Source of the DNA: Trypanosoma brucei
Taxonomy: Eukaryota
Direction: 5' to 3'
DNA length: 64,000 nt
Assembly (NCBI GenBank): GCA_000002445.1
Contig: AE017150.2
Location: 896,001-960,000 of the forward strand
In this document: one piece after another, positions 1,388-46,659 of the stretch
How positions within the stretch are numbered: the first letter of the stretch is position 1
How the letters are laid out: each line of letters starts with the position of its first letter
Translations under genes and position numbers: made by a program
Notes under the pieces: model-generated
Databases searched by the model: none
What the model saw: the letters and a program-made list of their open reading frames with translations, nothing else
Told to the model about the DNA's origin: nothing

Positions 1388-2935
1388 CTACAATTTTAAC
1401 TTAGAAATGAGCGAAACACAATCTAGGGCTAACTCAACAGCCCTCACAGACCGCCGAAACTCTTCGCAATCCACCATGTGACCACTTGATACATAAGACC
1501 TACCGCTTCTGTACTGCCCAACAACACTATTTGCATATGACATCGAACTCATCAGCTTAGCGTGATCCTCAGCAATTTTCTCTACCTCCTGGACATACGT
1601 TGCCGGAGGCTCCACCAAAGAGGGGTTAAGACAAATAGCATGTGAAACCAGCACGGCGTGTATGGCGCCAGCAAAGTGCCGAAGGTACGCATTCTGACTA
1701 CCGTGACGGGGTAACCGACGGCAAATATACTCAGCTAAAAACAGACAACATATGCCAACGACCCCGCCGTTGGTATACATCGAACCAGAATACACCTCGT
1801 AGGCGTATTGAGCTGCCTTTTCACACACTTCTAGTAGAGCCAACTTGGTGATGGGATCACCAACGGGAATTACTATTGTCGCCACACTGTTTTTTCCATA
1901 TATCCAAAGCCCTCCCTCTCTTGACAGCGTTGCTCTGCGCACCATTCCGACCTTAAAGAAACCCCGCTTCGCTGATCCAGCGTATTCTGCCCACGCACAA
2001 AACTCGTGCTCGGTATGAAATGGTGTTGCTCCCGTTGCATGCTGGATAGCGTCACAGACACACAACGACAACCGCTCAAGAGAGACTATTCCCATGTCAA
2101 AAAGCAGTTCCTTCAGCTCACAACACATCAGGCGCTGGGATCCCAAGAAACTAACCCCTATACTGCCCACCAACGTTAGAAAGTCCTCCAACACAGCACC
2201 TCTCATCTCAAGTGAGCACGAAAACAGCAGTATACCACCTTCTCTACAGTCACCCTCCAACAGCATTCGTGATTCTATGGGCAAGTTAACAGATATAAAT
2301 ACCCCATCTTCCACATAAACCTCACTCAACTGTGTTTCCACAGATGACAATAAACACTGACTAACTTCTAGCATGTGGGCATCACTCGTTAAAAAGTATA
2401 TATTCTTTTTTTGGATCACAACATTAGAAATAAGTTGCGCAAGAAAGGCACAATCACCTTTTGCCAAAACACCGCAGCTGAGCAAAATCGACTCCACTCC
2501 ATGCAAGCAGCAATGACTAAATGTTGACTTACACCTTTCGGACCACAAGAAGCCGAAATAAGCTTCGTTGGCCCACTCCTTCAGCAACTTTACAGCTTGA
2601 TGCAAATACATACGTTTCCGGTAACAACAACTGACGCCGCCTACAACACCATCTACTGCACCGAAAAGCCTACATACTAAAAAACCAACCAGCAAACGCG
2701 ACGATTCTTCATAAAAATAAACTTCATTTAAACCTGAAGCCCGAGAAAGCAGCAAGGCACCAAAAAGCTGATTACAACTGTCCCCGCTTTGCATCATACT
2801 GTATTTGACAACATAGCTAAACCACGCAGCCTTAACACTAATACCAGAAGAATCAACAAACAAAAAACGTCTACGACGCCCATATACTTCAAAAAAACAT
2901 ATATTTAAAAAAGTTAACAACTCTTTCAAATTCAT
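1388..2935 (-). CDS. hypothetical protein (~515 aa)
   Basis: Long minus-strand ORF running 1388-3028. The most upstream 93 nt (2936-3028) lie inside the SIRE-like repeat, so the start is placed at the MNLKELL Met. No domain recognised by eye. Confidence 0.55.
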   Translation of the reverse strand: MNLKELLTFLNICFFEVYGRRRRFLFVDSSGISVKAAWFSYVVKYSMMQSGDSCNQLFGALLLSRASGLNEVYFYEESSRLLVGFLVCRLFGAVDGVVGGVSCCYRKRMYLHQAVKLLKEWANEAYFGFLWSERCKSTFSHCCLHGVESILLSCGVLAKGDCAFLAQLISNVVIQKKNIYFLTSDAHMLEVSQCLLSSVETQLSEVYVEDGVFISVNLPIESRMLLEGDCREGGILLFSCSLEMRGAVLEDFLTLVGSIGVSFLGSQRLMCCELKELLFDMGIVSLERLSLCVCDAIQHATGATPFHTEHEFCAWAEYAGSAKRGFFKVGMVRRATLSREGGLWIYGKNSVATIVIPVGDPITKLALLEVCEKAAQYAYEVYSGSMYTNGGVVGICCLFLAEYICRRLPRHGSQNAYLRHFAGAIHAVLVSHAICLNPSLVEPPATYVQEVEKIAEDHAKLMSSMSYANSVVGQYRSGRSYVSSGHMVDCEEFRRSVRAVELALDCVSLISKLKL

Positions 2936-2957
2936 ACTAATCACGCTAATACAAACC

Positions 2958-3512
2958 TCATAATCAGACGCAAATCCAACATAGAAAAAGAAAAGGGGAT
3001 AAATCCGGTTAATTCCTCCTTCCGCCACACCAGCAGCACAAACACAACAAAAATGACGAAAAATGATACCAAATCACAACTACAAAAGAAAAAAATAAAA
3101 GTTACGAAACCATCCCGACACCTTGAAACATTTGAACAACACAAATAGCTGCGGGGGCTACGACAACCACAACAACGCAGCAACCAGTGGACCCTCTGAG
3201 GGACGGATGCTCGCACCGCAAAGAAAACTTCGGAGAGCACCACACACACACACACACACCCGTCTGAACCGCTCCCGTCGCGAGAAACAGCCTCCGCCTC
3301 TTCTCAGGTCAAGCACCGCTTAATACCACCGAACCAACATTCCCCACTGCATTCCGCACCCACACCACGGAAACACCACCGTCCAGACACGCTACAACAG
3401 TAAATATGAGTAGGGCCCGTCAAAACACACGGCATCCGGTGGGAAATGCCAACACGTTGCCACAAATTGGCGCAATCATGCAAAAGTCACTACCGCAACA
3501 ACCGAGGGCACT
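2958..3512 (-). mobile_element. SIRE-like short interspersed element, apparently intact solo copy (inverted relative to the copy at 4634-5057 plus 9357-9492)
   Basis: Reverse complement of 3089-3512 matches 4634-5057 base-for-base apart from a few substitutions. Reverse complement of 2958-3088 matches 9357-9492. The contiguous copy therefore equals the two pieces that flank the 4.3-kb internal region of the neighbouring element. Confidence 0.55.
3241..3259. repeat. (CA)9 microsatellite inside the SIRE-like repeat (mirrored as (GT)n at 4888-4906)
   Basis: cacacacacacacacacac seen directly; the mirror copy gtgtgtgtgtgtgtgtgtg lies in the right-hand repeat. Confidence 0.9.
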
Positions 3513-3847
3513 CCAGTAGCCTCAGTTGTCATATCTTCGCTTTTCCTCCCGCTCCTGGAGACACCCTTGCTGTCCCACCAACCGCCTGAATCTACGCGCA
3601 CCTGCCCGCAGACGGCCCTTTTGTCACCGGTTTCCGCCCACACCTGTCACCGCAGCAACAGCCCGCCTATACTCCACGAGCCGGTGCCGGCAGAGGGAAG
3701 TGCCTTGCTTTTCGCATAATGCCACTGAACAAAGTCCCAAGCGAAAACAATGAGGGACAGCCGCACAAGACCGCCCAGTAGCGTAGTGACGGCAGCTCAG
3801 ATAGAGCGCTGCGGACCCAATGGATGCCATGACGGCTCTGAGGTTTA

Positions 3848-3861
3848 CCCCCCCCCCCCCC
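3848..3861 (+). repeat. C14 homopolymer (G14 on the minus strand)
   Basis: aggtttaccccccccccccccgtgg seen directly. Confidence 0.95.
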
Positions 3862-4404
3862 GTGGAGGCAAACTCAGCGAGACCGGGGTCAAAGGGCCCA
3901 CTTGCCTTGTTCTGCCGATAAAACATAGAAAGGCGACAGGTGACCCGCGGCATCTGGTTTCCTGTCAGCAAGGTGGTGTCGACCACTGCAGCCCCATCGT
4001 GCAGTGGGTGCCATTCCCCAGCGTAAGAAAAGCATCGGTTGGGTGTGTGCCCTATCTGGTCCCCGGATGAACCTTCCCAACATATCGCTAGTCACATTCT
4101 TTTGCGGCGACCCACCCTCAAGCCCTTGCTAGCGGCCAAAGCTCTTCAGACACGGGTGTACTGGTACTTGTTGAGGATTTCCCTCACCTTATTCGGGTTC
4201 CATCTTTGGTGCTTCAGTGCGTTAGAAGGTCCGCCATATGCTGGCTCGTTGGGTGCATTTTTCGATACGTAGAACACGGTCTCAACGTCTTATTGGCGAA
4301 GCTCCGGCAAATTGCTATGGGGGCCCAGTGACCGGGCAAAGGTCCTACGTTTGAGGAGTCGCGGCTGACGGGCGACTTTTGAGTACCACATTTCAAAGGA
4401 AAAT

Positions 4405-4414
4405 GGGGGGGGGG
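4405..4414 (+). repeat. G10 homopolymer
   Basis: aaaatggggggggggcggcc seen directly. Confidence 0.95.
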
Positions 4415-4633
4415 CGGCCAGTGATTCAATCGGTTCGTCCGGAACATTAAGTGGCCTTGGAGATGAAATCCTTTACTTGCCTCGGAAGCGACGCAAATCT
4501 CTCACTATAGTTGGGGAGAAATAGCCCTCGCCCCTCCGGCGTCCAAGCTTGCACGCGGAAGTACCCTAAGGGTGACGCTACCTAATCATAGAGGGACAAC
4601 GCATCACAAGAACTTCGAACTGCGGAAAGATAA

Positions 4634-5057
4634 GAGTGCCCTCGGTTGTTGCGGTAGTGACTTTTGCATGATTGCGCCAATTTGTGGCAACGTGTTGGCA
4701 TTTCCCACCGGATGCCGTGTGTTTTGACGGGCCCTACTCATATTTACTGTTGTAGCGTGTCTGGACGGTGGTGTTTCCGTGGTGTGGGTGCGGAATGCAG
4801 TGGGGAATGTTGGTTCGGTGGTATTAAGCGGTGCTTGACCTGAGAAGAGGCGGAGGCTGTTTCTCGCGACGGGAGCGGTTCAGACGGGTGTGTGTGTGTG
4901 TGTGTGGTGCTCTCCGAAGTTTTCTTTGCGGTGCGAGCATCCGTCCCTCAGAGGGTCCACTGGTTGCTGCGTTGTTGTGGTTGTCGTAGCCCCCGCAGCT
5001 ATTTGTGTTGTTCAAATGTTTCAAGGTGTCGGGATGGTTTCGTAACTTTTATTTTTG
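4634..5057 (+). repeat. SIRE-like 5' terminal piece of the composite element (right arm of the inverted repeat)
   Basis: Inverted match to 3089-3512. Confidence 0.7.
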
Positions 5058-5867
5058 TGAGGTTGAGAAAGGAATCGTCCATCCTTACCACTTTCCTTGT
5101 TATTCGTTCTTTCCTTTCTTATATATGCATAGAAAAACTATTACTGAGGAAAGTTTTTTAAAAAGGTAAGTAATCGCTGTAAGTTTTGAGAGATGGTAAC
5201 GACAACCCCTCCAACTATATTGGATGCCGAATGGAAAATAAGTTTGAAAGAAATAAGGACTTTTGTGAAGCAGGGCGGTCGGACCACATTTTCATTCGAC
5301 TATTGTCCCCCTTTTGGAAATACAGCGGTACACGTAGACGGTTTGGTGAGGCTTGAAAATGGAGAGCTTCGAGTGATTTTTGACTAGGCAGCTAAATTTC
5401 GTCGATTTACGGAGCTCGTTGGTTTCCTTCAATATGCCCTAAAACATTGAATTCTTGTGTATGTTCAAAGAAAATAGAGATATGTTTCGTAACGAATGTC
5501 TAGCACTAGAAGCAAATAAGTCTAATTTATACCAACAGTACGAAATGACAAGACCACAAATGAATGATGAGCACTGGAGAATGCAAAACCAGTCGATGGA
5601 ACTGAATAGGCAAGTTGAAAGGTTCATGCAAGAAAATTGTGCTTTGAGAGGGGAAATGGAACAGATGCTCTTCCATAACAATAGGTTAGTAGTTGTCATT
5701 GAATCGATAACACCTGAGTTACACCACTGGAAGATATTAGCAAATACGGACGCCACACATAAAACGGATCCAGTTGTCGAACAAGGGAGAGTAAAGAATG
5801 AATCAGATCAAAAGGAAAAAGGTAGAATAGAAATAAAGTTCCCTTTTGACTCATACAAATCACAGTT

Positions 5868-6440
5868 TTGTCAGAAATCAAGCGGTTAACATGTAAGGAA
5901 CCACAAGGTAGGAATCAGAGGCATTCAGCAGGTAAAAATAGCTTTGTGGGCAAGGGTTTTCCCCCTAAAGAAAACATACGGACGTTTAAAGGGGAGATCG
6001 AATACATGACGGAGACATCACCGGAACAGTTTTTTAACTGCGTACAAAGAATTGTTCCCATTACCACAAAAACCGGATTACGGGTCACAATGCGTCTGGG
6101 AGCAATTTGCGGCGTGGATAAGTGCAGTGGGAGTATAAGGATCTCAGAAGGTGGGATAACAGTCGGGAGGTCGATTCACACTTATCTTCGAGTCTTACAA
6201 ACAGCGAAAGCCCATCCGGGGGTGCGAGTGGAAGCGTTGGCAAAGGCAGTACATGACTCAAGGAGGGACGAGGATCCATACCATCAAGCATACCCAAAAG
6301 TTCAAAAACCGACTTCCCAAGTTAGCAGAATACGATGCTTCCGATGTGGGAAGTTGGAGCACTACAGTGCGTCATGCTTCGTTAAGGATGCCAAGGTTCC
6401 GTGGAAGCCAACAAGCGAATACCGGCCCCGGAAACAGTAA
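5868..6440 (+). pseudogene. gag-like ORF fragment with a CCHC zinc knuckle (retroelement ORF1 remnant)
   Basis: 190-aa ORF containing the CX2CX4HX4C knuckle CFRCGKLEHYSASC. Neighbouring frames carry further fragments (5455-5889, 6253-6708). Confidence 0.55.
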
Positions 6441-6870
6441 GCTTCGGGGCCGAGAAAATATTGGAATCCGTATCCATGGTTACGGGGCCAAGGACCCACA
6501 AGTGGGTAATAGCGAATGGAGAAATGCCACGGAAAACTTGCCGGGTAAAGGTCTGATGGTAGAGGAGGACACAGAGGACACAAAGGGAAGAGAGCCAGCA
6601 AGAGAAACGGCATCCCCAGTTTTGCGCCCTACGAAAACACCGGTAAACGAAGTTATCGTTATAAAACTGGCGACCCACGATCCGGTTATGGCGGCGTGGG
6701 CTTCATAATCGAATTGCATAGCAAGGGTCATGAGGACACAGTCAACTTGGGAGCAGCGGCGGTCGATTCTCAGAAGATTCTGCGAGTTTGCGGCAAAACA
6801 CAACGTGGAGCCAAGTGAGGGGAATGTTCCCATCTTCATTGTGAGTTTGTAACTGGACAAAAGCAGCGCC

Positions 6871-7382
6871 GTGAGGTATACAGGAACTCTTTTGTCGATG
6901 CTGGCAGCGGAAAAGGCACTAGCAAGAATGTTTTTGTTGGGTTTGCAGAGAAAAGTGGAGGAAACACCAATAAAGCAGGCCTGCCCCATGGAGATGTGGG
7001 AGCTGGACATGATAAGCGACACAACGGAACTGGAAAGGGAGCGAGTGGCCATGCGTCTGTCTTGGGTCACTGCCAGTCGTTGGGGAGAGATTGCTTCGCT
7101 GCAAAAGGAAAATTTTGTCGCTCATCCTCAGGACGAGGAGGCACTAATCGTCGACTGGGGGGCATCCCAAAGACATTCAAGTTAGATCCACGCAGAGCAG
7201 CGAGATATGTGGTCATCGCGGGCGAGGACGCCAAAAAGTTGAAGAAAGTCGTAAGGTTGATGGTGGATGAAGAAAAACTAACCACCATCAGCACAAGGGA
7301 CGTGGAAAACATTCTGAAACCTTACGCAATGACGGTACATTCTATAAAAAAAAAAGGGGGTCTCTACCTCATGCGACCGTAG
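6871..7382 (+). pseudogene. tyrosine-recombinase (DIRS/VIPER ORF2-like) fragments, frameshifted
   Basis: LSWVTASRWGEIASLQKENF resembles box I (TGLRxGELxxL). ...YAMTVHSIKKKGGLYLM resembles box II (HxLRH..G). The motifs are in two different frames. Confidence 0.45.
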
Positions 7383-8099
7383 CGGTGGTAGAAAACGACC
7401 TCGACTCACACATTCTGGCCCAGATGGGAAAACACGCGGACCCCATGGAATTTCGTCGGAGCACCACTAGGAATTTAGGGTCGTGGGTGGCAGTGCTAAA
7501 CAAGTAAATTTAACAGTGCTCATGCATAAACGGAGGGTGAGTGGGCCACGTTACTGTGGAAGGTTCAGAATCCAACGATAAAAATAATAGGACAGGACCT
7601 TTATTTCAGAGACACAACATTCTCCGACGCACCCATCAAACCAAGGTCGCCTCGGATACTGAGCAACAGGAGTCACCGTAACAACAGATGAATGTGGAGA
7701 CTTTATCGCTAAAATGGATCAAGTAACGACTGAATAGTCAATATTTACAGCTCTTCAATGATGTTTGGGAGACCATGCGCAGACCGGCCAGGAAAGAAGG
7801 TCGGGAATACGAGCCAAAATTGACGATTTCAGACCAGAATACTATCACCGTGGAAAGAGAGGGTACAATTCAGAAAGTGTCCAACAACCCTACCACGGGT
7901 TGGGCGGTGCCCTTCACGGTAGTTGAAGAGAAGCCAACGGGTTGTCGAGGGCGAATCATTACATGGCCAAAGTCTAAGAATGCACAGGACGATTATGAAG
8001 CTATTGTTCCTCTGGGACACGTGCCACGCTACCTGGATGCTGTCCATGATGAGGGTGCAGCGCTTTGTGATTTAAAAGCTTCGTTTTCTTAAAAGCGGG

Positions 8100-8335
8100 C
8101 TTGCTGATGGACACCCGATCAGGTTTCTTATGCCGGACGGCAGGTGGAAAGCTCGTGGAACTTGCCCGACTTCCTATGGGTTACAAGTGTGGCCCGGGAG
8201 TCTTACACACGGCCCCGTGTGTATTGGCCGGGGACTCTGCAGTAGTGAAAGCTGAATATGCAGCGCCTTCGTAGCTAAAAGTACATGTGTGGATTGATAA
8301 TATTCGTATTAGCAGTCCACGGGAAGTTGTAAACT
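8100..8335 (+). pseudogene. reverse-transcriptase fragment (motif B-like LPMGYKCGPG and motif C-like VWIDNI) with an in-frame stop
   Basis: Frame-0 translation ...VELARLPMGYKCGPGVLHTAPCVLAGDSAVV...(stop)...VWIDNIRISSPREV. The motif spacing of ~35 codons is typical of an RT. Confidence 0.5.
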
Positions 8336-9356
8336 GATGGAACAAGGTGATTAGAAGAAACATGTTACAGCGCGGCGCAACTTCATGGAAAAGCAAGTCC
8401 ATCACCGCACTATATGATTTCATTGGAGTCCACTTTGGTCATGGTTCAAAGATGGTGCCATTGAGCAAAAAAACGGTGCGGAAACTCAGGAGGCTATCCC
8501 ACTGAGAGGGTTACTGTTGACAGTTTGGAGAGCATAGTATCCCGAATGATGTATGCGGCAGGGGCACGGGGAGGTTCTCTGTTCCGACATTTTTTTTTCT
8601 TAAAGATGGTAAGACGGCGCTTGTCGGAGCTCAACAGGTGTGTCTTGGCGCAGAACGACATGGCACGGCTTTCCCTCCAGGCAATCCGCATGGGGCAGGA
8701 GTGACTAAGCGGGTTGATCGAAAAAGAACCCGTTAAGCCGTCAAGGTAATTACCGACTTCTGCAACATCGGTTACCGATGCTTCTATACACGGCTGGTGA
8801 GCTTCACTTTTTAAGGACAATGGGAAAGTATGGGCTTCAGGAGGCCAGCGGGCACAACCTCCACATTGTATCTCTCATACCAAGGCGAGAGCAGTGACAT
8901 TGGCATTGAGAGCTTTTCAGGGCAGCCTGCTTAATAATATTTACGTATGTGTGGATAATACTACAGTTATGCATGTCACGAAAAAAGGTAACACACACTC
9001 CGATGCTTCGGTTCAAGAAGTAAGTTTAATAGATCATGTTTATCTGGAGGAAGGCATCGAGGCTCTTTGGGACTATGTTGTTTCATTAGCGAATTTCGCT
9101 GATGGTATCTCACGGAGGAGGGCGGTTTTTCCATCGGACTTAGCGAAAGGGTGGAACTTGTGATAGGGAGCGCGGGAGGCGGGATGAGAACGCTTTCACC
9201 AATTCCTTATCGTAAGTGTTTTGTTTCTTTCATTGTCTTAATATTGGGAGTTTTACCTACATTGAAAAAGCTTACCGTGATACCCCAAAATTGGCCATTT
9301 AAATAATTATATCTTTATCATAATTCTCTTCTATATGTAGGAGTAGGTAAGGTGCA

Positions 9357-9492
9357 AACTATTCTTTTCTTTTGTAGTTGTGATTTGGTATCATTTTTCG
9401 TCACTTTTGTTGTGTTTGTGCCGCTGGTGTGGCGGAAGGAGGAATTAACCGGATTTATCCCCTTTTCTTTTTCTATGTTGGATTTGCGTCTG
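9357..9492 (+). repeat. SIRE-like 3' terminal piece of the composite element
   Basis: Inverted match to 2958-3088 (ttcttttgtagttgtgatttggtatcatttttcgtca...). Confidence 0.7.
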
Positions 9493-9748
9493 ATTATAAG
9501 ATTCATCCGTGCGTGTTGTATAATTATTGATTGTTTTATGTTTGTAATTGGTTATTTGTTGCTTGTTTCTTATATTGCTCTTTTATTTGCTTCGTTGATA
9601 TGCTCAAATATATTCTTTTACATGTTTGTAGTGTAGTGTAGTTGAAGGAAAGGGTCCTAGTTTGTACCTGAGTATTGTGTTACTCTTTTTTATATATGGG
9701 AAGGAATTGCCAATGCTTATATCTGCCTCCTTTGTGTCTTACCAGCGC

Positions 9749-10378
9749 ATGATCGTTGCAGAACATCGTGTTACGGCTACAATGAAAGGTGTTGTTGATG
9801 TTATGCTCGAGCAGCTTCCTCGTTATGACACTAAAGCCGTCTATCAGTATGATGAAAGCGTGTTTCATTTTCTTGTTGAAAATGAACTTGTGTACGGTTG
9901 TGTCACAGGTGTGGATCACACAAAGCGCGTGGTATTTGAATTTTTGTCACGTATCCGTGATTTCTTTAAAAAAGAGTTTGCTGGTAGCGATAGGCGATAT
10001 CCACGACCCTCGGCTATTTCTTTCAGTGCTTGCAGTAAATTCGGCGCAGTGCTTTCAGATAATATGCGGTCATTCAATGAAACTAATAGTACAGATAAAC
10101 TTGGTGAAATTAATAAACTTGTTGATGATACGAAGCATACAATGTTGGGGAACATAGACGTGCTAATTGATCGCGGGGAGCGAATTGAATTATTGTGTCA
10201 TAAGACGGAAGTGCTTAACACCGGATCCCGTGCTTTTCAGTCCAGTGCTAGGTCGTTAAAGTGGAAAGTGTGTATGGGAAAGATGCGGTTTGTTATTGGG
10301 ACGTTTTTACTTTTCCTTTTCTTTGCGACCATATCTTTCATTTTCATTTGCGGCACTAACCTCAAGTGCAAAAAGTAG
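9749..10378 (+). CDS. longin-domain R-SNARE (VAMP7-like vesicle-associated membrane protein)
   Basis: N-terminal longin-like region (MIVAEHRVTATMKGVV...LVYGCVTGVDHTKRVVFEFLSRIRDFF). R-SNARE motif (KLGEINKLVDDTKHTMLGNIDVLIDRGERIELLCHKTEVLNTGSRAFQSSARSLKWK). C-terminal TM segment (FVIGTFLLFLFFATISFIFI). Confidence 0.8.
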   Translation: MIVAEHRVTATMKGVVDVMLEQLPRYDTKAVYQYDESVFHFLVENELVYGCVTGVDHTKRVVFEFLSRIRDFFKKEFAGSDRRYPRPSAISFSACSKFGAVLSDNMRSFNETNSTDKLGEINKLVDDTKHTMLGNIDVLIDRGERIELLCHKTEVLNTGSRAFQSSARSLKWKVCMGKMRFVIGTFLLFLFFATISFIFICGTNLKCKK

Positions 10379-12392: not shown

Positions 12393-13184
12393 ATTATTGG
12401 TGACAATCGGCGTGATAATCGGCAACGTTTCTGAAGGATAGAGAAGCTGCTTTCCCTGTTGACGGTTAGTGCAGCATGGAACTTGTCCTCTGTTTCTTTT
12501 ATTACGCCTACATTTTGCTAACTTTGTTGTAGCGCTGGTTCTTTGTGTTGCGCCTCCTTTTGGGTCGGTGCTGGATTTTAAACCTTAGTAACAAACGTGT
12601 AAACCTTTTTTTTACTCGGGGTGTCGTACATGTCACTGGGCACCATCGTGCATATTCTTATATTCCACTTAAAAGCTTTTTAAATCTTTTTTGAGTGCTT
12701 TGTCATCTAAAGACCGATATGCAGAACTGTCTCGAGCATATATGATTTGTTGGAGATAAGGGGGTTAAAGCGTTTGTATCCATCGTGGTTAGGTAGTCAG
12801 GTCTATTATCATAGTAGTCGAGCAGATGAGGGGGTAGTAAACATTGATGTTTTGTCCCACCTAACGTCAGAGGATCTCCAGTTAGTGGTATGTAATGGAA
12901 ATATTAAACATACACAGCGTAGTTGTATTTTCTTTGCTTTAGGTGAATTTGAGAATCGTGGTCCCTGGCCATACTCCGTCGACTCTCCAAAGTGGCTACA
13001 ATTTTAGCTCCAGAACGCTGGAGGAGGTGGATCAGTGTCTGTGAAAACTAGGTTTACCTGCTGTGCATAAACTTTTTTCCAGTATGCAATTAAATGCAGT
13101 GCTTCTACTTTGCTTTCCTCATTATTTCTTACCATCCAGTTTCCTCATTAAAGGCAACGTATATACTTAGATCTAACCGCATAA

Positions 13185-19056: not shown

Positions 19057-21198
19057 ATGGATGAGCAAAACAGTGAGAGCTCGGATGTGGGGGGCTTACT
19101 TGAAGTTCTCGAAGAGTGTGCGCTTGGTGACTGGGACGTGAGTGCAGATGAGTTGCTGTTAAAGTCGTTGATGACAATGCAGGCGAAGCTTTCCGCCCGT
19201 TTTGACTCTATTCGCGGTATGGTGGACTCCCTTTATGATGAGGCGCGTACGGCCTCGATCCAACTTCAAAACGCCATGAATTCCTTTGCCGTCTTATCAC
19301 AGAGGCAGTTCGTGCAGAACCGTGTGTCGGCAGAAGACGAAGGTAGCGAAAGAGAAACCGAGCCCTCCAAGTCTGATGAAGGCGAGTCAGAGGATAGAGA
19401 AAGGGGTCTTGGGGACGTGGAGGTGAGGGTTGCCCGTATGTGCCAAGAGTGCGTAGACCTTAGCTATCGTGTTCTCAAGAAACGAACAATGCCGTTGCTC
19501 GACGAGGACTCTTCCCTGAGTGAGTATGGTTCGGGGGATGATGAGAGCGAAGGAAGCTCCGCTGAGGTTCGCCGCCCTTCTTGCTCTGAGAATCTCTTCA
19601 TGTCACCCATTACTTCAAGAAAATTTCTCAGCGACCCGTACGGGGGCTACTTTGATAATACTGTCGGCAAAGCAGATTTTACCTCGGGAGGGAGGCGTCG
19701 TCTTGGTGGTTCTACGGGACGAATGGGAAGAGGCTCGCGGCAAAACCCGTCAACGAGATTAGGGGGACCGACGACCGTGCGTCCTGCTGCGCCACCGCCG
19801 TTGCCACCCACTCCCCCACCGGTTCAGATGGCGAAGGCGAAAGGGACTTTGCCCCCACCACCTCCACCGATGCCCACAGGAAAGCTTAAGGCTCCCCCGC
19901 CTCCACCGCCACCGTTTGCGTCGATTGCTGGAAAGACGAGGGCACCCCTGCCACCGCCACCCCCTGCGCCTACTGGAAAGACTCAGGCCCCAGCAGCTCC
20001 ACCCCCTGCGCCTACTGGAAAGACTCAGGCTCCAGCAGCTCCACCCCCTGCGCCTACTGGAAAGACTCAGGCCCCAGCAGCTCCACCCCCTGCGCCTACT
20101 GGAAAGACTCAGGCTCCAGCAGCTCCACCCCCTGCGCCTACTGGAAAGACTCAGGCCCCAGCAGCTCCACCCCCTGCGCCTACTGGAAAGACTCAGGCTC
20201 CAACAGCTCCACCCCCTGCGCCTACTGGAAAGACTCAGGCTCCAGCAGCTCCACCCCCTGCGCCTACTGGAAAGACTCAGGCTCCAGCAGCTCCACCCCC
20301 TGCGCCTACTGGAAAGACTCAGGCCCCAGCAGCCCCGCGTGTCGCCGCACAGACGCAAAAGCAGCAGGCAAAAAAAGGTGTAGCTGCGTTTCTCGACTCT
20401 TCCGACAGTTCGGACGGGTCAGAAGCGAAACCATGTGCGGGGGCTGTGGTAAGACCGGGTCTGGCAGCTCCTTCGCTTGTACGAGAGAATTCAACGCTCC
20501 CGTCACCCGCACCAGTGCTAAGCATGAAGAGGCCACCTGCTGCTTCATCGGGAAAGGGAAAGGTTGCCCTGTTCGACTCGAGCTCGGATAGTGACGAAGA
20601 AAACTCTGGTGTGCGAGCAGCCACTTTCACTGAGAAGGATGACCAACAGTTCCCTAAGGGAGGGGTGGGTGCTGGTGATTTGGCGCGCAAAGGCTCTCCG
20701 AGGGGGGTTCCGAGTCGAGCAACGAGCGGCAGTAGGGTCGGTCCAACTGACCAACAGAAGCTGATATCACCAGTGGGCAGCCCGCGGAGCAGGCGTCCAA
20801 TCTTTTCTAGTTCAAGCGGCAGCTCTCCGGAAGCGACTCCACCGAGGGCGAGTATCAAACAAACCGGTTGCCGAGGTGCGGCTCTCGGGGTATCCAGTAC
20901 CGCACAGGTAGGCGGCGGTAATAACCAAAGCACAACCGCAAAACCTCTCCCAACCACATTTCAATCTGTCGAGAGGAGTGTTCCAGCGTCTCCACCGCCG
21001 CCAGAAGGAGTGCGTGCTAGGAGTGAGGCCGCACCTGCACAGTCGCCCGATGCCGCAGCCAATGTGATGCCTATTGTGAAGACGGAAACTCAACCACAAG
21101 GTGATGACAAAGAGCAGCATACTGCTGCGCCCCTGAAGGTGATACCCAATGTAGCCTTCAGCAAGCGTAAAATAAGCGATAGCGATTCCGACAATTAG
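19057..21198 (+). CDS. proline-rich repeat protein (FH1-like polyproline blocks, 9 tandem APAAPPPAPTGKTQ units, acidic Ser/Asp clusters)
   Basis: PPPLPPTPPP, PPPPPPMP, APPPPPPPF, then 9x APTGKTQAPAAPPP. Also FLDSSDSSDGSE and FDSSSDSDEENSG casein-kinase-like clusters. No FH2 or other globular domain recognised. Confidence 0.7.
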   Translation: MDEQNSESSDVGGLLEVLEECALGDWDVSADELLLKSLMTMQAKLSARFDSIRGMVDSLYDEARTASIQLQNAMNSFAVLSQRQFVQNRVSAEDEGSERETEPSKSDEGESEDRERGLGDVEVRVARMCQECVDLSYRVLKKRTMPLLDEDSSLSEYGSGDDESEGSSAEVRRPSCSENLFMSPITSRKFLSDPYGGYFDNTVGKADFTSGGRRRLGGSTGRMGRGSRQNPSTRLGGPTTVRPAAPPPLPPTPPPVQMAKAKGTLPPPPPPMPTGKLKAPPPPPPPFASIAGKTRAPLPPPPPAPTGKTQAPAAPPPAPTGKTQAPAAPPPAPTGKTQAPAAPPPAPTGKTQAPAAPPPAPTGKTQAPAAPPPAPTGKTQAPTAPPPAPTGKTQAPAAPPPAPTGKTQAPAAPPPAPTGKTQAPAAPRVAAQTQKQQAKKGVAAFLDSSDSSDGSEAKPCAGAVVRPGLAAPSLVRENSTLPSPAPVLSMKRPPAASSGKGKVALFDSSSDSDEENSGVRAATFTEKDDQQFPKGGVGAGDLARKGSPRGVPSRATSGSRVGPTDQQKLISPVGSPRSRRPIFSSSSGSSPEATPPRASIKQTGCRGAALGVSSTAQVGGGNNQSTTAKPLPTTFQSVERSVPASPPPPEGVRARSEAAPAQSPDAAANVMPIVKTETQPQGDDKEQHTAAPLKVIPNVAFSKRKISDSDSDN
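19963..20340 (+). repeat. 9 near-perfect tandem copies of a 42-bp coding repeat (cctgcgcctactggaaagactcaggcYccagcagctccaccc)
   Basis: Seen directly. The only recurrent difference is a synonymous gcc/gct alternation. Confidence 0.95.
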
Positions 21199-29430: not shown

Positions 29431-32400
29431 ATGAATGAAGAACCACCTCAGATGGGGAAGTTATTGCTGGAAGCAGAGATCCCAGAGGAACTGTTGAAGG
29501 ACAAAACACCACAGGAACAAAACATAATCATGCGCGGTCACCTAACGCAGCGCCGCTTCGAGCAGAACGAAACGCCTGTTGTTCGGGATGTGGTGCGGCA
29601 AAAGGTGAAGGAAGACGTACGACAGCTGGGGCTGAAAACATATCCTGCGCAACGACGAGCGCAGACGACTAACCAACTGAACGTCATGCGGGAGATGCAC
29701 CAGGCCACGAAATTCAGAAATCCTACGGCAGCCCCATTGCCAATGCGGTTACCGCCACTTCTAGGAAAAATGCTGCGGCGGCAAAACAGTACGGGTGCGA
29801 AATCTACGCTGCTCGCACAGGATGGCGGTGCAAGTGCGGTGAACCCCGACGCTGAGGTTGAGAAGGATGGAAAGAGGTTGGCCTCGGCACAAGGGCAAGG
29901 TGACAGAGTTAATCCCTCTGCGAGTGGACGAAAATACTTTTTGTTGGAAGATTTTGATAGCACCGATTTTGAGCTTCATACGCCGGAAGAGTGGGTTGCG
30001 CTCGGCGAAGCATGTGGGGGTACGCCGGCGCGGTCGCGCTACTTCATCAAAACAACGAATGGGACGGAGTGGCGTCCATGTCGTGTCGTGGCGTACAATG
30101 AGTCCAGCTGTTGCTACCGCATCGTGTGGGAGTGCGATGGTTGTAGCAAGTGGACCACCAGGCTGAACATTATATTTGATGATGAAAGCGAGTTGAAGTG
30201 GCTTGAGCGTGTACGGCAAGCTGAGGCATATCGAGATGAAACAGAAGCAGCGCTTCGGAGTCGCCTGTACATAGAACAGCTCGACAAGAGCATTCTGGCT
30301 CCAATGGATCAGGTGCAAATGGAGCGGATTCTCTCCCTCGTTGCCCGTCGGTTTCCAATCACAACGCTATCGCTTGTTGATTGTTGTACGCGCGAGGTGG
30401 AAGAACTCTACTATTACAGTCTCAAGCGAGCGCAACACTGGCGGGAGATGGTGAGTGACCCAGAGGAACGGAAGAGAGCACACTTACTGGGACTTCCACC
30501 TCCACCGCCAGGGATGGTGACCGAGACATATACTGAGTCGACGAAGGAGTTACGCGGCACAATTGACACACCATCACCCAATTTTGAGGCCGCACGACAG
30601 TTCGTGGCGGAAAATCTCTTCCAGACACATTTGCTACTGAATACGACCATTCATTCCATTCACTCACAGTGGGGCGAGTACAAGTCTCAGTTGTTCTGCT
30701 TAACACAGTACGGCAAGGGTGACACACCGCTGCAGCTCCGATTGTTCAGTGACATGCAGTCGCACCGCGGTATTGCCACTGCCGAGAAGTTGCGGAATGA
30801 GTGGAGTATGAACGTACGGTACACAATCCTGAACAAGCTGGACCTCCATTTCAAGTTTTATGAAGATGATATAAATCGATACAACGGCAGTCGCATGAAC
30901 CGCTTTGTGAACCTTGTCAACATCATGATGACATCTCAGCTACGTGAGTTACTGGTCGCCTCGCTACAGGAATATGCCGACTTTATCTATCAGTACCGTA
31001 CAGTACCGCTTGACGGCGATGAGGAGATGGAAGAGCTTCAGGAAGACATTGAAGAGGCTCAACACTGGGTGAGACGTCAAAACGAGTGGAAAGCGAAACT
31101 GCGCGCTGACGCTGAAGGAGAACAAGAGCGGTTGCGCAGTGGTGGCGCATCGGCTGGCCCCACAGGCAGTTCCCGCCGTGTCCCGCCTAAGGCCGAAGAG
31201 GAAGATGCGGATGGGGAGGTACCCTTTGTTTGGCGGCTGGGCCAATTCCGGAACAGTATACCGTACACAAGGAGAGTAGTCGAAATGACGATGAACACAC
31301 GCGGCTTACAGCCACTGTTTATACTGAACCTCGTGGAGGAGGACGGCCGCGTTGTATTCTTCCCCACACTTGAGGAAGTCAAACTTCGTGTGCGCGGTGT
31401 CTTTGAGAGCTGTTTCGAACATGCGGATAGAATACAAGGTATGGGTGATCAGCTTTTCCCCTTGTTGCAGCTCCCGCAGGTGATACTCCAACCTCTCGGC
31501 CCGCAGGAACCAGTTGTGTGTGAGGCACGTCGCTTGATTGACAAGGCTCTTGAGGACAACGTCGAGGCCCCTATGCAGCTTCTGCAAATGTACCAAACTT
31601 TTGAGTACATACTACGACTTGATCCTAACGACCTTGTTGAGGAGGCAAACGAGCGTCAGTTGTCCTTGCACGACTTCGACTGGACGTTCGAGCGACTCAC
31701 TCGTGACAAGGAGCGCATTGTGCACCGTACGCATAATCATGTCAAGTACGAAATGTTTTTTATTGACTGTACAGGGATTAAAACAACACTAATCACAAAA
31801 GCAACCAATGTTCAGGACGCGTTGATGGAAGCACTAGCGCAGCGTCTAAGGGGAAATTGTACTTCTATTATAAATGAATATAATATGATGAGTAATCGCA
31901 TGGCGGTGGAGCCTCGAACACCGGAAGAGTTGCAGGAGCTACGTGACTTCCTTGATGCTATTCCGGGCCGTCAGGAACAAATAAACGTGGTGTTCGACAC
32001 CGTCACCTCTGGCTTTGACCTTCTGTTCAAATACAGATATGACTTCTCCCCTGAGGCTTGCTACGACTACCACACAGCATATGAATGGCCGCGGCTCTTA
32101 CAACAGGGGTTGGAGGATGGGAATTTCCGCAGCAGAGAGTACCGCACACTCCTTATGCAGGTTCTCCGCGACAACTGCGAGGTGCTCACAGAAAACATTG
32201 TCCGTTTGGCCAACACTGTGGAGGACTTCACCCATTTTGGCGACGATGCACGCGCCGATCAGTACTACGAGCATGCTAAAGCATTGGAGCAGCGCATCAG
32301 GGAACACCAGGCCCAAATGCAACTGTACAACAGCCATGAGACGCTATTTGCCCTTCCGCAATCGAAGTGGCCGCAACTGAAGGCTATTAAAGCGCAACTG

Positions 32401-35400
32401 GAACCGTATTACGTGCTGTGGGAGGTTGTAAGTCACTTTCAAAACGAGAGTGAGCGCTGGCTGAATACGCGCCTCCACGCGCTACAACCGTTCGAAGCTG
32501 ATCGACAACTAACGGACTGGGCGAAAAAGGTAGCAGTTGTGTCTAAAAAGATTAAGGAGGCGGAACCACTAGCTGTGGCAAAGCGAATCCGTGAAAATAT
32601 AGCCATCTTCAAGCCGAACATTTCTCTGCTGTATGCGCTTCGGAGTAACTTACAGGCGACGCACTGGAAAGCCATTTTCCAAGTGTGCGGTGTGCCGAGG
32701 GAAAAGCAAAATTTAGGTGCCGGAGGCTCGGAGTCAAACGATTCTCGGCCATTCAGTGACTTCATCAAACTAGGCATGCTGGACTTCATGCCTCAGATAG
32801 AAAGCATCGCAGCCGTAGCGCAGAAGTCGTTCGAGTTGGAAAGTGAGCTCATGGCGATGGAGACGGAATGGAAGAAGCTCCTCTTTGAGATTGAGCCGTA
32901 CCAAGATACATACAAGCTCAAGGCAAATGATATCATGCAGTTGACTTTGGATGAGCACATACTAAAGACGCAATCTATGCTGGGGAAGCCGATTGTGCGC
33001 CAAGCTCCCGCGCTTCAGGCGCGCGTACTACAGTGGGAGAAACTGCTAGACAAGGTTCAATGTACAATGGATGAATGGTTCAAGTGCCAGGGCACGTGGG
33101 CTTACCTTGAGCCTATTTTTTCGTCTGCGGATATTTCCCGCAGCTTGCCAAAGGAGAAACAGCTTTTTGTTGTCATCGATGAGTCGTGGCACAAAATTAT
33201 GGAACAGGCGCGCACCACACCGCAGATACTAACTAGATGCCAAGATGAATTGCTGCTGCGGACGCTAGTTGAAAATAACAACAACCTTGACATCATTCTT
33301 AAGAAGCTGCAACAATTTCTCGAAACGAAGCGAATGGCCTTTCCGAGGTTCTACTTCATTTCTAATGAGGAGTTGCTTCAAATATTGTCGGACAGCAAGG
33401 ATCCATACCTCGTGCAACCGTATCTCAGCAAGTGTTTTGAAGGCATTAAGCGTATTCATTTCGCGGATGCGCATGATATCCTTGCAATGGAATCATCTGA
33501 AGGGGAAGTCGTGCGTCTAGTAAAGACAATTAACCCGAATGATTTCCAAAATAGAGTAGAGTTATGGTTGCAGGGTCTGGAGACTACTATGAAGGAAACC
33601 ATTTTAGACCAACTGAAGCAGGCGACGGCTGATTATGTACAACGCAAAAAGCGGGCAGAATTTATTCGTGCATGGCCAGGCCAGGTGGTTATTGCCATCT
33701 GTTCGCTTTATTGGACTATGGAGGCAACAGAGGCGATGAGTAAGGAGGGAACTGTGGGTCTGACAAGTTACCACGAGAAGTGTGTTGGACAGCTCGACGA
33801 ACTTATTGTACTCGTGCGAGATCGCAACCTCGCAGTGGTGGAACGGTGCACGTTGGAAGCGCTGGTCGTAGTGGAAGTGCACGCGAAGGATATCATAGGG
33901 CAGCTTTCAGAGAAAGGTGTGGATTCACCGAAAAGCTTTGACTGGCTGGCTCAGCTACGGTACTACTGGGAGGAGGGCCACCTTCAAGTGCATCAAATTA
34001 ATGCCTCGCTACGCTACGGCTACGAGTACTTGGGTAACACCGGCAGGCTTGTCATCACACCGTTGACGGACCGTTGCTATCGGACTCTCATTGGTGCACT
34101 GCACTTAAACTACGGTGGCGCACCGGAAGGCCCTGCTGGTACCGGAAAGACAGAAACAACAAAGGATCTTGCGAAAGCTCTGGGTAAGTACTGTGTGGTG
34201 TATAACTGCTCAGATCAGATCACAGCGAAGGATATGGCAAAGCTCTTCAAAGGCCTATCGCAGTCAGGATCGTGGGGGTGCTTTGATGAATTCAACCGTA
34301 TTGAAATTCAGGTCCTTTCTGTGATCGCGCAGCAGGTAGCGGTAATTCAGGAAGCTATTATCCAGAAGCGCTCGGAATTTATATTCGACGGCGCGCAGAT
34401 TCGCTTGGATCCTGGCTGTGCTATCTTTATCACCATGAATCCTGGGTACGCTGGACGTGCTGAGCTTCCAGATAACCTCAAGGCGCTTTTTCGACCGGTG
34501 GCAATGATGGTGCCCAACTATGCTATGATTGGTGAGATTCAGCTGTATTCATACGGTTTCCTCTATGGTAAGGAGTTGGCGGAAAAGATCGTCGCCACTT
34601 ACCGTCTGTGCTCGGAACAGCTATCATCTCAGGACCACTATGACTACGGTATGCGTGCCGTGAAGGCTGTGTTGACTGCGGCTGGTCGCTTGAAGAGGGC
34701 GTACCCTGACGAAGACGAAATGGTACTGATGCTGCGTTCCATCCAAGATGTTAACCTTCCCAAGTTCCTGACGCAGGATGTGGAACTTTTTAAGGGAATC
34801 ATTTCCGATTTGTTCCCCGGTGTGAACTTACCAGAACCCGACTATGTGGACATGCACAATGCCCTTGTGAAGGTGTGTACAACACGTAATTTGCAGCTCA
34901 CGCCCTACTTTGAGCTGAAGGTGAGGCAGACGTATGAAATGATTGTTGTGCGTCACGGAATGATGTTGGTTGGGTATTCTTTTGGTGGAAAAACGAAGGT
35001 ATTGCACTGTCTGTCAGAGTCTCTTGGCCTCATGGAAGCTGTTGGGAAGGAACGACGCACACGTCTCTTCACAATGAATCCAAAATCAGTAACGATGCCA
35101 CAGTTGTACGGCAAGGTGGAGCAGTCGGGTGAATGGACGGACGGTATTCTACCCTACAGATTCAGGCTCGCTGCGCAGGACACTTCCACCGACCGTAAGT
35201 GGCTTGTCCTTGACGGGCCTGTAGATGCAGTGTGGATTGAGAACATGAATACTGTCCTCGACGATAATAAAAAACTCTGCCTTCAGAATGGTGATATCAT
35301 CGCAATGTCCAAAGAGATGAATCTTATATTTGAGGTACAAGATCTCGCGCACGCTTCACCCGCCACCGTCTCCCGTTGTGGTATGGTATATGTGGAGCCG

Positions 35401-46560: not shown

Positions 46561-46616
46561 TTCTATTGTCACTGTTGCATTTCCCCTTTACTGACACGCT
46601 CTTCCCTCTTTCCCGC
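46561..46616 (+). promoter_or_regulatory. polypyrimidine tract upstream of each array ORF, a candidate trans-splicing signal repeated in every unit
   Basis: ttccccttta(c)tgacacgctcttccctctttcccgc lies 45-60 nt upstream of each ATG (46660, 48594, 50522, 52441, 54366, 56306, 58246, 60186). Confidence 0.45.
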
Positions 46617-46659
46617 ATATGTGTGTATTTGATAAACTCATAAGGAAGCAACACTGACA

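What the first reader, a model, noticed from the sequence alone, without database searches (positions are those of the whole stretch)
4634..9492. Degenerate VIPER-like tyrosine-recombinase retroelement lodged in the strand-switch region, directly upstream of the first plus-strand gene
A short element present intact at 2958-3512 is split here into a 424-bp 5' piece and a 136-bp 3' piece by 4.3 kb. The insert carries, in order, a gag-like CCHC knuckle, tyrosine-recombinase box I/II-like motifs and RT motifs. This is exactly the published VIPER organisation (SIRE 5' piece, three ORFs, SIRE 3' piece). All ORFs are broken by stops and frameshifts, so this is a fossil copy. Its position inside the strand-switch region fits the idea that strand-switch regions tolerate or accumulate retroelements. 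It also lets the relationship between the solo SIRE-like copy and its parental element be read directly within one window.
Basis: partly seen in the sequence, partly recalled or inferred. Interest (0 to 1): 0.5.

Follow-up and report, generated by a model that had tools for sequence, protein, structure and literature searches.

The report
Dead VIPER retroelement in strand-switch region
This is an already catalogued, dead copy of the trypanosome VIPER retrotransposon sitting head-to-head with a 560-bp relic of the same family between two diverging gene clusters on Trypanosoma brucei chromosome 2; the one fresh point is that their identical inverted ends match a published small-RNA locus and have flipped the DNA between them in one subspecies.

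Summary
The matches are A = 423 nt at 100% and B = 144 nt at 96.5%, separated by 4303 bp. The insert is a VIPER fossil with gag-like CCHC, then tyrosine recombinase, then RT/RNase H. It carries at least 7 premature stops and at least 6 frameshifts, and the catalytic Tyr is now Asn. The window is T. b. brucei TREU927 chromosome 2. This copy is already listed as "degenerated" in Ribeiro 2019. It has A...B only, not the canonical A1...B1-A2-B2 repeats.

Three things go beyond the finding:
- The two head-to-head A arms match Tb927_02_IR1 (422 bp, 100%), a published DCL2-dependent siRNA locus never linked to VIPER in the papers I could search.
- The arms evolve in concert across three subspecies.
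- The 1.12-kb spacer between them is inverted in T. b. equiperdum relative to TREU927 and T. b. gambiense, which indicates recombination between the arms.

The element is a known kind and a known instance, so interest is low to moderate.

The parts
1391..2935 (-). First gene of the minus-strand transcription unit (hypothetical protein, 515 aa). Its annotated ATG lies 19 nt from the end of the solo element.
   Evidence: Exact match to XP_951684/AAQ15966 of T. b. brucei TREU927.
2954..3097 (-). B (3') part of the solo short element.
   Evidence: 144 nt, 96.5% reverse-complement match to 9360-9503. Copy-specific differences are fixed in three subspecies.
3091..3513 (-). A (5') part of the solo short element, forming the left arm of the long inverted repeat. 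It contains a (GT)n microsatellite.
   Evidence: 423 nt, 100% reverse-complement match to 4634-5056. The same layout is present in T. b. gambiense and T. b. equiperdum.
3514..4633 (.). Unique 1120-nt GC-rich (56%) spacer at the core of the divergent strand-switch region. It is inverted in T. b. equiperdum.
   Evidence: No Pfam, Rfam or tRNA hit and no internal symmetry. It matches on the plus strand in L006 and on the minus strand in L007, with junctions swapped exactly at the arm ends.
3848..3861 (-). G14 run, read on the minus strand, facing the minus-strand unit.
   Evidence: Two of the four G/C runs of 8 nt or more in the 64 kb lie in the spacer.
4405..4414 (+). G10 run facing the plus-strand unit.
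4634..5056 (+). A (5' terminal) repeat of the VIPER fossil, forming the right arm of the inverted repeat. It is 68% G+T on the sense strand.
   Evidence: The G+T fraction is in the top 0.1% of 423-nt windows of the plus-strand unit.
5193..6440 (+). Gag-like pseudogene in three frame segments (5193-5387, 5455-5889, 5850-6440).
   Evidence: Translations. Weak tblastn matches to the N-terminal part of a T. melophagium VIPER-like protein.
6336..6377 (+). CX2CX4HX4C zinc knuckle (CFRCGKLEHYSASC).
   Evidence: Pfam zf-CCHC E=1.4e-3. The same motif is seen at the same relative place in the T. cruzi copy and is described for VIPER Gag in PMC6681497.
6709..7507 (+). Tyrosine-recombinase pseudogene with 1 internal stop (6850) and 2 frameshifts (about 7167 and about 7340, the latter at an A-run).
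   Evidence: 60% identity to intact T. theileri P0048. Alignment. The family profile hits Cre.
7472..7474 (+). Codon AAT (Asn) at the position of the catalytic tyrosine (RYLG in intact relatives, RNLG here).
   Evidence: The same codon is present in all three subspecies.
7688..9163 (+). RT/RNase H pseudogene with 6 internal stops and 2 frameshifts (about 8086 and about 8498). The RT motif is VWIDNI at 8287-8304.
   Evidence: Eight of nine checked stop codons are shared by the three subspecies.
9360..9503 (+). B (3' terminal) repeat of the VIPER fossil, 71% G+T. No A2-B2 follows it.
9713..10378 (+). First gene of the plus-strand transcription unit (VAMP/longin SNARE, 221 aa), 210 nt downstream of B.
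   Evidence: Exact match to XP_951685. Longin and Synaptobrevin Pfam domains in the orthologues.

Best explanation
Window 4634-9503 is a dead copy of the T. brucei VIPER element, a tyrosine-recombinase retrotransposon of the DIRS order. Its layout is 5' repeat A, gag-like gene with a CCHC knuckle, tyrosine recombinase, RT/RNase H, 3' repeat B. It lies in sense orientation at the start of the plus-strand transcription unit on chromosome 2 of T. b. brucei TREU927.

A 560-bp A+B relic of the same family (2954-3513) lies in the opposite orientation at the start of the minus-strand unit.

Inferred from what is published about the family:
- Both arrived by reverse transcription and recombinase-mediated insertion, which leaves no target-site duplication.
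- The long copy is the product expected from B1xB2 recombination of a canonical A1-ORFs-B1-A2-B2 element.
- The relic is either the product of A1xA2 recombination or a non-autonomous SIRE-type insertion.

Shown here:
- The insertions and most disabling mutations predate the split of the T. brucei subspecies.
- The two head-to-head A arms form a perfect 423-nt inverted repeat. They stay identical within each genome while differing between genomes.
- The 1.12-kb spacer they enclose has opposite orientation in T. b. equiperdum.
The arms therefore recombine with each other, giving gene conversion plus inversion.

From the literature, with identity inferred from chromosome, length, identity and coordinates: this repeat is Tb927_02_IR1, a source of DCL2-dependent siRNAs. 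Those most plausibly come from rare transcripts that read through both arms and fold back.
For: VIPER identity:
- RT/RH hits at E=8e-159 and tblastn coverage of 7595-9208.
- YR, RT and RH collinear with a T. cruzi Dm28c copy.
- YR 60% identical to an intact T. theileri ORF.
- The family profile hits Cre at E=1.7e-8, with near-invariant R, K, H, K, H, Y.
- CCHC knuckle.
- L006 coordinates FN554965.1:628710-649375 overlap the published 'Tbg972_02_628348_644500 degenerated' entry. 'Tb927_02_v5.1_894682_911167 degenerated' is also listed.

Decay: at least 7 stops, at least 6 frameshifts and Tyr to Asn. Most are shared across subspecies.

Organism and locus: exact TREU927 proteins on a 1,193,948-bp record.

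Layout is real: the same inverted arrangement appears in two other assemblies.

Concerted evolution:
- Both substitution sites in arm A that vary between genomes carry the same state in both arms of a genome.
- Arm B keeps fixed copy-specific differences.
- At the B-arm rate, zero differences in 423 nt has P of about 4e-7 (my calculation).

Inversion: the spacer matches the plus strand in L006 and the minus strand in L007 at 98.3-98.5%, with junctions swapped exactly at the arm ends.

IR1: Table 3 of PMC3447711 gives chromosome 2, 898600/902200, 422 bp, 100%, 403 reads, 9% of wild type in the dcl2 mutant. The window offset deduced puts the arms at about 898.7-900.7 kb.
Against: - The canonical split direct repeats (B1-A2-B2) are absent in all three genomes. 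The recombination-deletion history is therefore inferred, not seen.
- I could not retrieve any other T. brucei copy of A, B or VIPER. The termini are defined only by these two copies, and it is unproven that the solo element belongs to a dispersed family.
- There is no DNA similarity between these termini and a T. cruzi VIPER locus.
- The inversion rests on one assembly. DAL972 may have been ordered with TREU927 as a guide (from memory).
- Concerted evolution rests on only two variable sites, one of which is next to a microsatellite.
- TREU927 coordinates could not be read directly, so identity with IR1 is inferred.
Confidence: 0.85

Rival explanations
1. The whole of 2954-9503 is one composite DIRS1-type element. 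It would have 144-nt terminal inverted repeats (B' ... B) and an internal inverted pair (A' ... A), rather than being two separate insertions.
For: The outermost 144 nt are inverted copies of each other at 96.5%. DIRS-type elements can carry inverted terminal repeats (PMC6681497 Background).
Against: - Published VIPER copies in T. cruzi and C. fasciculata have split direct repeats, not inverted termini.
- No internal complementary region was found.
- The spacer has no retroelement coding signal.
- The solo copy has both termini fused exactly as in SIRE (A2+B2).
- The spacer flips independently of the rest.
Confidence: 0.05
2. The solo 560-bp unit is a local inverted duplication of the neighbouring VIPER's ends. 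On this reading it is neither an independent insertion nor the relic of a second element.
For: Arm A is 100% identical to its neighbour. No other copy exists in the 64-kb window. No family members could be retrieved.
Against: - It would need a duplication plus a precise 4.3-kb deletion joining A to B.
- Homology stops sharply at both termini, with unrelated flanks.
- Arm B carries old, fixed differences while arm A does not. That fits an old pair with conversion of A better than a recent duplication.
- The literature lists SIRE and VIPER among T. brucei elements.
Confidence: 0.08
3. The perfect inverted repeat and the spacer inversion are assembly artefacts.
For: The T. equiperdum OVI scaffolds are gapped and chimeric at exactly this locus. 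The VIPER interior shows patchy high divergence that could reflect mis-assembled repeat reads.
Against: - Three assemblies of different origin give the same arms and the same spacer length of 1120-1125 nt.
- The repeat was found independently by Tschudi et al..
- The inverted spacer in L007 is a clean full-length match with exact junctions.
Confidence: 0.04
4. The two outward-facing, GT-rich A/B units have been co-opted. They would act as directional Pol II promoter elements and/or as donors of splice-acceptor and 5'UTR sequence for the first gene of each transcription unit.
For: - Sense-strand G+T is 68-71%, in the top 0.1% of windows in the transcription unit.
- GT-rich sequences on the coding strand drive directional transcription and H2A.Z deposition in T. 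brucei (PMC5579346).
- Both units point away from the spacer toward their genes. The annotated ATG of the left gene is 19 nt from B.
- G runs in the spacer face outward.
Against: - There are no transcription-start, chromatin or splice-site data for this locus here.
- GT skew is a general property of trypanosome coding strands.
- Most T. brucei divergent regions work without VIPER.
- This reading is compatible with, not exclusive of, the best explanation.
Confidence: 0.15

Closest known systems
VIPER of Trypanosoma cruzi (Vazquez 2000; Lorenzi 2006; revised by Ribeiro 2019, PMC6681497)
   Same: The gene order is the same: gag-like with CX2CX4HX4C, then tyrosine recombinase, then RT/RNase H. Protein similarity is collinear at 34-46% identity. 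The RT motif WIDNI and the recombinase motifs TASRW, HSIK and RYLG are shared. No target-site duplication is visible.
   Different: The terminal repeats are 423 and 144 nt, against 173 and 219 nt in T. cruzi. There is no detectable DNA similarity in the termini. The 3' B1-A2-B2 arrangement is missing. All three ORFs are dead.
SIRE of T. cruzi (A2+B2 of VIPER)
   Same: The solo unit is the VIPER 5' repeat fused directly to the VIPER 3' repeat. It sits in an intergenic position just upstream of a gene.
   Different: It is 560 bp rather than about 430 bp. There is no sequence similarity to the T. cruzi locus examined. Copy number in T. brucei was not determined here, whereas T. cruzi has about 2000 copies (PMC12618653).
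Tb927_02_IR1, a long inverted repeat siRNA locus (Tschudi 2012, PMC3447711)
   Same: Chromosome 2, 422-423-bp arms, 100% identity, and coordinates consistent with the window.
   Different: That paper does not mention VIPER or SIRE. It does not report that the spacer orientation differs between subspecies.
Solo LTRs and recombination derivatives of split-direct-repeat elements (Ngaro/PAT-like)
   Same: A-ORFs-B and A-B are the products expected from recombination between the direct repeats of A1-ORFs-B1-A2-B2.
   Different: The parental full structure is not observed in T. brucei here.
GC-rich strand-switch domains with degenerate VIPER/SIRE at T. cruzi centromeres (Obado 2007, PMC1868937)
   Same: A degenerate VIPER/SIRE composite in a GC-rich region (55-56%) between divergent gene clusters.
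   Different: No AT-rich repeat array, the T. brucei centromere hallmark, is present in the 64-kb window. The chromosome 2 array is placed between Tb927.2.1470 and Tb927.2.1560 in that paper.

Membership tests
VIPER (tyrosine-recombinase retrotransposon, DIRS order) | RT/RNase H ORF homologous to VIPER ORF3. | tested here: met
   E=8e-159 and 54% identity to a T. grayi protein. T. theileri and T. cruzi relatives are also hit. tblastn covers 7595-9208. The region is collinear with a T. cruzi Dm28c copy.
VIPER (tyrosine-recombinase retrotransposon, DIRS order) | Tyrosine-recombinase ORF upstream of RT/RH. | tested here: met
   The pseudogene at 6709-7507 is 60% identical to an intact 319-aa T. 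theileri ORF. A profile of 55 family members hits Cre recombinase at E=1.7e-8. In this copy the catalytic Tyr is mutated to Asn.
VIPER (tyrosine-recombinase retrotransposon, DIRS order) | Gag-like ORF1 with a CX2CX4HX4C box. | tested here: met
   CFRCGKLEHYSASC at 6336-6377. The same box is present in the T. cruzi copy.
VIPER (tyrosine-recombinase retrotransposon, DIRS order) | Split direct repeats: A1 at the 5' end and B1-A2-B2 at the 3' end. | tested here: not met
   Only A (4634-5056) and one B (9360-9503) are present. No A2-B2 lies downstream in TREU927, DAL972 or T. b. equiperdum. This is compatible with a B1xB2 deletion derivative.
VIPER (tyrosine-recombinase retrotransposon, DIRS order) | No target-site duplication. 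| tested here: met
   The flanks of both copies are unrelated at both ends (sequence read).
VIPER (tyrosine-recombinase retrotransposon, DIRS order) | Listed as VIPER by the family's curators. | tested here: met
   Tb927_02_v5.1_894682_911167 and Tbg972_02_628348_644500 are both entered as 'degenerated' in all three ORFs. The second entry overlaps the record range of L006.
SIRE (short interspersed repetitive element) | Made of the VIPER 5' repeat joined to the VIPER 3' repeat. | tested here: met
   2954-3513 equals A+B with a 7-nt overlap at the junction.
SIRE (short interspersed repetitive element) | Sequence similarity to T. cruzi SIRE/VIPER termini. | tested here: not met
   Sensitive blastn against a T. 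cruzi VIPER locus gave only (GT)n matches. The SIRE consensus itself was not available.
SIRE (short interspersed repetitive element) | Dispersed, multi-copy family in the host genome. | not testable with these tools
   No DNA search of trypanosome genomes is offered. An ORF-based search found nothing. The supplementary sequences are truncated in the held copy.
Long inverted repeat siRNA loci of T. brucei (IR1-IR7) | Near-identical inverted arms of at least 400 bp at the published position. | tested here: met
   423 nt at 100%, against 422 bp at 100% on chromosome 2 at 898600/902200. The window offset deduced places the arms at about 898.7-900.7 kb.
Long inverted repeat siRNA loci of T. brucei (IR1-IR7) | Produces Argonaute-bound, Dicer-dependent small RNAs. 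| not testable with these tools
   Taken from PMC3447711 Table 3: 403 reads, 52% of wild type in the dcl1 mutant and 9% in the dcl2 mutant.
DIRS1-type element (inverted terminal repeats plus internal complementary region) | An internal complementary region matching the joined outer ends. | tested here: not met
   No further repeat was found inside 2954-9503.

The most novel reading that the evidence does not exclude
Two fossil VIPER termini, inserted head-to-head, have turned the core of an RNA polymerase II divergent transcription start region into an invertible segment. The 423-nt arms recombine, keep each other identical, flip the 1.1-kb G-run-bearing spacer between T. brucei lineages (possibly within populations), and feed nuclear-Dicer-dependent siRNA production (IR1). 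Because the region has two-fold polarity, either orientation keeps G runs and GT-rich arms on the outward coding strands, so the flip is tolerated. If the arms also act as GT-rich promoter elements, this would be a retroelement-built bidirectional promoter.
Probability: 0.3. Interest if true: 0.5.

Novelty: already known. Interest (0 to 1): 0.3.

Why it matters
As a VIPER fossil this adds nothing. The family has been known in T. brucei since 2006 and this very copy is in a published list.

The small gain is a connection between three separate records: the VIPER catalogue, the list of long inverted repeats that make siRNAs, and comparative assemblies. It explains what IR1 is, namely VIPER 5' termini head-to-head. 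It also explains why its arms are perfectly identical, a point the original authors called a curiosity: the arms recombine, as shown by concerted substitutions and a flipped spacer. Finally, it offers a compact, PCR-testable case of inverted-repeat recombination at a trypanosome transcription start region.

Tried and rejected
- Single-sequence Pfam scans of the fragments gave only sub-threshold hits for RVT_1, RVT_3 and zf-CCHC and nothing for the recombinase. A family profile was needed.
- Retrieving other T. brucei copies of A/B failed. A protein search with the ORF spanning the A-B junction found nothing. The supplementary FASTA of Ribeiro 2019 is truncated before T. brucei. None of 199 collected proteins is a close T. 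brucei paralogue.
- TREU927 coordinates could not be read because that genome is not in the gene-position index.
- The T. equiperdum OVI scaffolds are gapped and chimeric at this locus and give no information on orientation.
- DNA comparison of the termini with a T. cruzi VIPER locus gave microsatellite matches only.
- The spacer has no Pfam family, Rfam family, tRNA, VIPER protein similarity or internal palindrome.
- A centromere reading was rejected because there is no AT-rich repeat array in the window.
- A DIRS1-like reading with inverted terminal repeats and an internal complementary region was rejected (see rivals).

Full report
**Observation.** A repeat search on the first 14 kb finds two inverted pairs. 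Window 3091-3513 pairs with 4634-5056 (423 nt, 100%), and 2954-3097 pairs with 9360-9503 (144 nt, 97%). A sensitive self-BLAST of 2800-9700 against the whole window finds only these two pairs. However, the intact copy is in the opposite orientation, so the two elements lie head-to-head across a 1120-nt spacer.

Three-frame translation of the insert shows, in order:
- a gag-like region (5193-6440) ending in CFRCGKLEHYSASC (6336-6377; Pfam zf-CCHC E=1.4e-3);
- a recombinase-like region (6709-7507);
- an RT/RNase H region (7688-9163).
Every region is interrupted by stops and frameshifts.

**Organism and locus.** Four window proteins are exact matches to T. b. brucei TREU927 entries on a 1,193,948-bp record: XP_951684, XP_951685 (VAMP), XP_951686 and the dynein heavy chain XP_951699. 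The left gene and VAMP have consecutive accession numbers, so nothing is annotated between them.
- The first minus-strand gene starts at 2935, 19 nt from the solo element.
- The first plus-strand gene starts at 9713, 210 nt after the long copy.
- All larger ORFs to the right are on the plus strand.
- The syntenic loci show minus-strand genes to the left.
- GC and AT skew change sign near 4000.
This is a divergent strand-switch region. It has no AT-rich satellite, so it lacks the T. brucei centromere hallmark described in PMC1868937.

**What the insert is.**
- RT/RH: a stitched RT/RH translation hits T. grayi (E=8e-159, 54% identity), T. theileri, T. melophagium and many T. cruzi proteins. The source names given to several of these ('TOR kinase 1', 'rab1') do not fit an RT/RNase H sequence.
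- No second copy: tblastn with those proteins covers 7595-9208 and nothing else in the window.
- Collinearity: tblastx against a T. cruzi Dm28c locus is collinear from the recombinase through RNase H.
- Recombinase: the stitched sequence is 60% identical over its full length to an intact 319-aa T. theileri ORF.
- Fold class: an exhaustive search with that ORF finds 636 relatives. An alignment of 55 of them has near-invariant R171, K202, H258, K261, H288 and Y301. Its profile hits Cre recombinase at E=1.7e-8, pairing TASRW with the Cre catalytic-arginine region and HSIKRGA with Cre HSARVGA.
- Published listing: Ribeiro et al. 2019 list 'Tb927_02_v5.1_894682_911167' and 'Tbg972_02_628348_644500' as VIPER copies with all three ORFs 'degenerated'. 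The second interval overlaps the record range of my T. b. gambiense locus L006 (FN554965.1:628710-649375).
The element is therefore VIPER, and this copy is already catalogued.

**Degree of decay.**
- Recombinase: one internal stop, two frameshifts, and Asn (AAT, 7472-7474) in place of the catalytic tyrosine.
- RT/RH: six internal stops and two frameshifts.
- Gag-like region: at least two frameshifts.
- Eight of nine checked stop codons, and the Tyr-to-Asn change, are shared with T. b. gambiense and T. b. equiperdum. The copy was therefore dead before these lineages split.

**Structure compared with the published one.** The current canonical VIPER has split direct repeats, A1 at the 5' end and B1-A2-B2 at the 3' end, and SIRE corresponds to A2+B2 (PMC6681497 and PMC12278014). 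Here there is A...B only, in all three genomes.
- A-ORFs-B is what B1xB2 recombination would leave.
- The solo A+B is what A1xA2 recombination would leave, or it is a SIRE-type non-autonomous insertion.
These histories are inferred, and I could not fetch any other T. brucei copy to test them. The termini show no DNA similarity to the T. cruzi locus. No target-site duplication is visible.

**The inverted repeat.** Tschudi et al. 2012 surveyed T. brucei for long inverted repeats and found seven. The first is Tb927_02_IR1: chromosome 2, 898600/902200, 422 bp, 100% identity, 403 Argonaute-associated small-RNA reads, falling to 9% of wild type without the nuclear Dicer DCL2. That paper never mentions VIPER or SIRE. 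The published VIPER coordinates include 8-kb flanks. Using them, the window start falls near 895.6 kb and the arms at about 898.7-900.7 kb, inside the IR1 interval. I conclude that IR1 is the pair of head-to-head VIPER A termini. Both arms are sense-oriented with respect to their own transcription unit, so double-stranded RNA needs a transcript that crosses the spacer and both arms. This is an inference, and it fits IR1 being the weakest of the seven loci.

**Recombination between the arms.** The same layout is present in T. b. gambiense DAL972 and T. b. equiperdum, with spacers of 1124 and 1125 nt.
- Within each genome the arms are identical apart from the length of a (GT)n tract.
- At the two substitution sites that differ between genomes, both arms of a genome carry the same base: C/C against G/G and G/G, and G/G against T/T and T/T.
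- The B pieces, 6.3 kb apart, keep copy-specific differences that are fixed in all three genomes.
- At the B divergence rate, about 15 differences would be expected in 423 nt, and none is seen.
- The spacer matches the plus strand in DAL972 (98.3%) but the minus strand in T. b. equiperdum (98.5%). The junction sequences are exchanged exactly at the arm ends.
Crossing-over between inverted arms explains both the inversion and the homogenisation. The main caveat is that the inversion rests on one assembly. I recall that assembly being long-read, but did not verify this.

**The spacer and possible co-option.**
- The spacer has no protein family, RNA family, tRNA, VIPER similarity or internal symmetry.
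- It holds two of the four G/C runs of 8 nt or more in the window: G14 on the minus strand at 3848-3861 and G10 on the plus strand at 4405-4414. Each faces its nearer transcription unit. Inversion preserves this polarity.
- The A arms are 68% G+T on the outward coding strand, in the top 0.1% of windows in the plus-strand unit.
- GT-rich coding-strand sequence can drive directional Pol II initiation in T. brucei (PMC5579346).
A promoter or splice-acceptor role for the A/B units is therefore conceivable but untested. I give it about 0.15.

**Verdict.** The element and this instance are already known. The added value is linking it to IR1 and showing arm-to-arm recombination with a lineage-specific flip of the strand-switch core.

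Noticed in passing
window 5057-9359, compared with L006 and L007: The VIPER interior is 2.9-3.3% diverged between TREU927 and the other two subspecies, against 0.5-0.7% in the flanking genes. The differences are patchy, for example 32 mismatches in 8251-8500 while the other two genomes differ by only 5 there. This suggests ectopic gene conversion from paralogous VIPER copies, or mosaic assembly of repeat reads.
   Followed up: partly
window 3238-3262 and 4885-4909; L006 3471-3523 and 5154-5194: The (GT)n microsatellite inside the A arm varies in length between subspecies. In T. b. gambiense it also differs between the two arms of one genome, with the solo arm 16 nt longer. Slippage therefore outpaces arm homogenisation.
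   Followed up: partly
window 46393-62000: There is a tandem array of eight units of about 1.93-1.94 kb (95-100% identical). Each encodes a 362-369-aa protein with the IGP-family C-type lectin domain (PF16825, E=5e-85).
   Followed up: partly
window 19957-20333: Nine perfect-register copies of a 42-bp (14-aa) repeat lie inside a 713-aa ORF (19057-21198) that has no Pfam match.
   Followed up: no
window 43077-45299: A trans-sialidase-like ORF (BNR_3 plus TS_C domains, E about 1e-58) lies just upstream of the IGP array. A 4246-aa dynein heavy chain lies at 29431-42171.
   Followed up: no
L008 (T. cruzi Dm28c PRFA01000034.1) 8935-9188 and 12476-12729: The 3' end of the T. cruzi VIPER copy has a 254-nt, 97% inverted partner 3.3 kb downstream. 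This is another VIPER/SIRE-derived inverted repeat, in a different species.
   Followed up: no
L005 1-600 and L010 1-560 (T. equiperdum OVI scaffolds): The short-read OVI assembly breaks inside this locus. N gaps replace most of B, and a scaffold joins the VIPER A/gag start directly to the left-hand gene. That assembly is unreliable here.
   Followed up: yes
alignment A2 (VIPER-type recombinases), position 261 of P0048: Across 55 family members the second catalytic arginine of the usual H-x-x-R box is a near-invariant lysine (HSIK), followed by a consensus arginine. In the profile alignment this lysine pairs with Cre R292.
   Followed up: no
(names given by public sources): Intact VIPER ORFs in public databases carry names that do not fit their sequence. 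RT/RH proteins are named 'target of rapamycin (TOR) kinase 1' or 'rab1 small GTP-binding protein', and recombinases are named 'trans-sialidase'.
   Followed up: no
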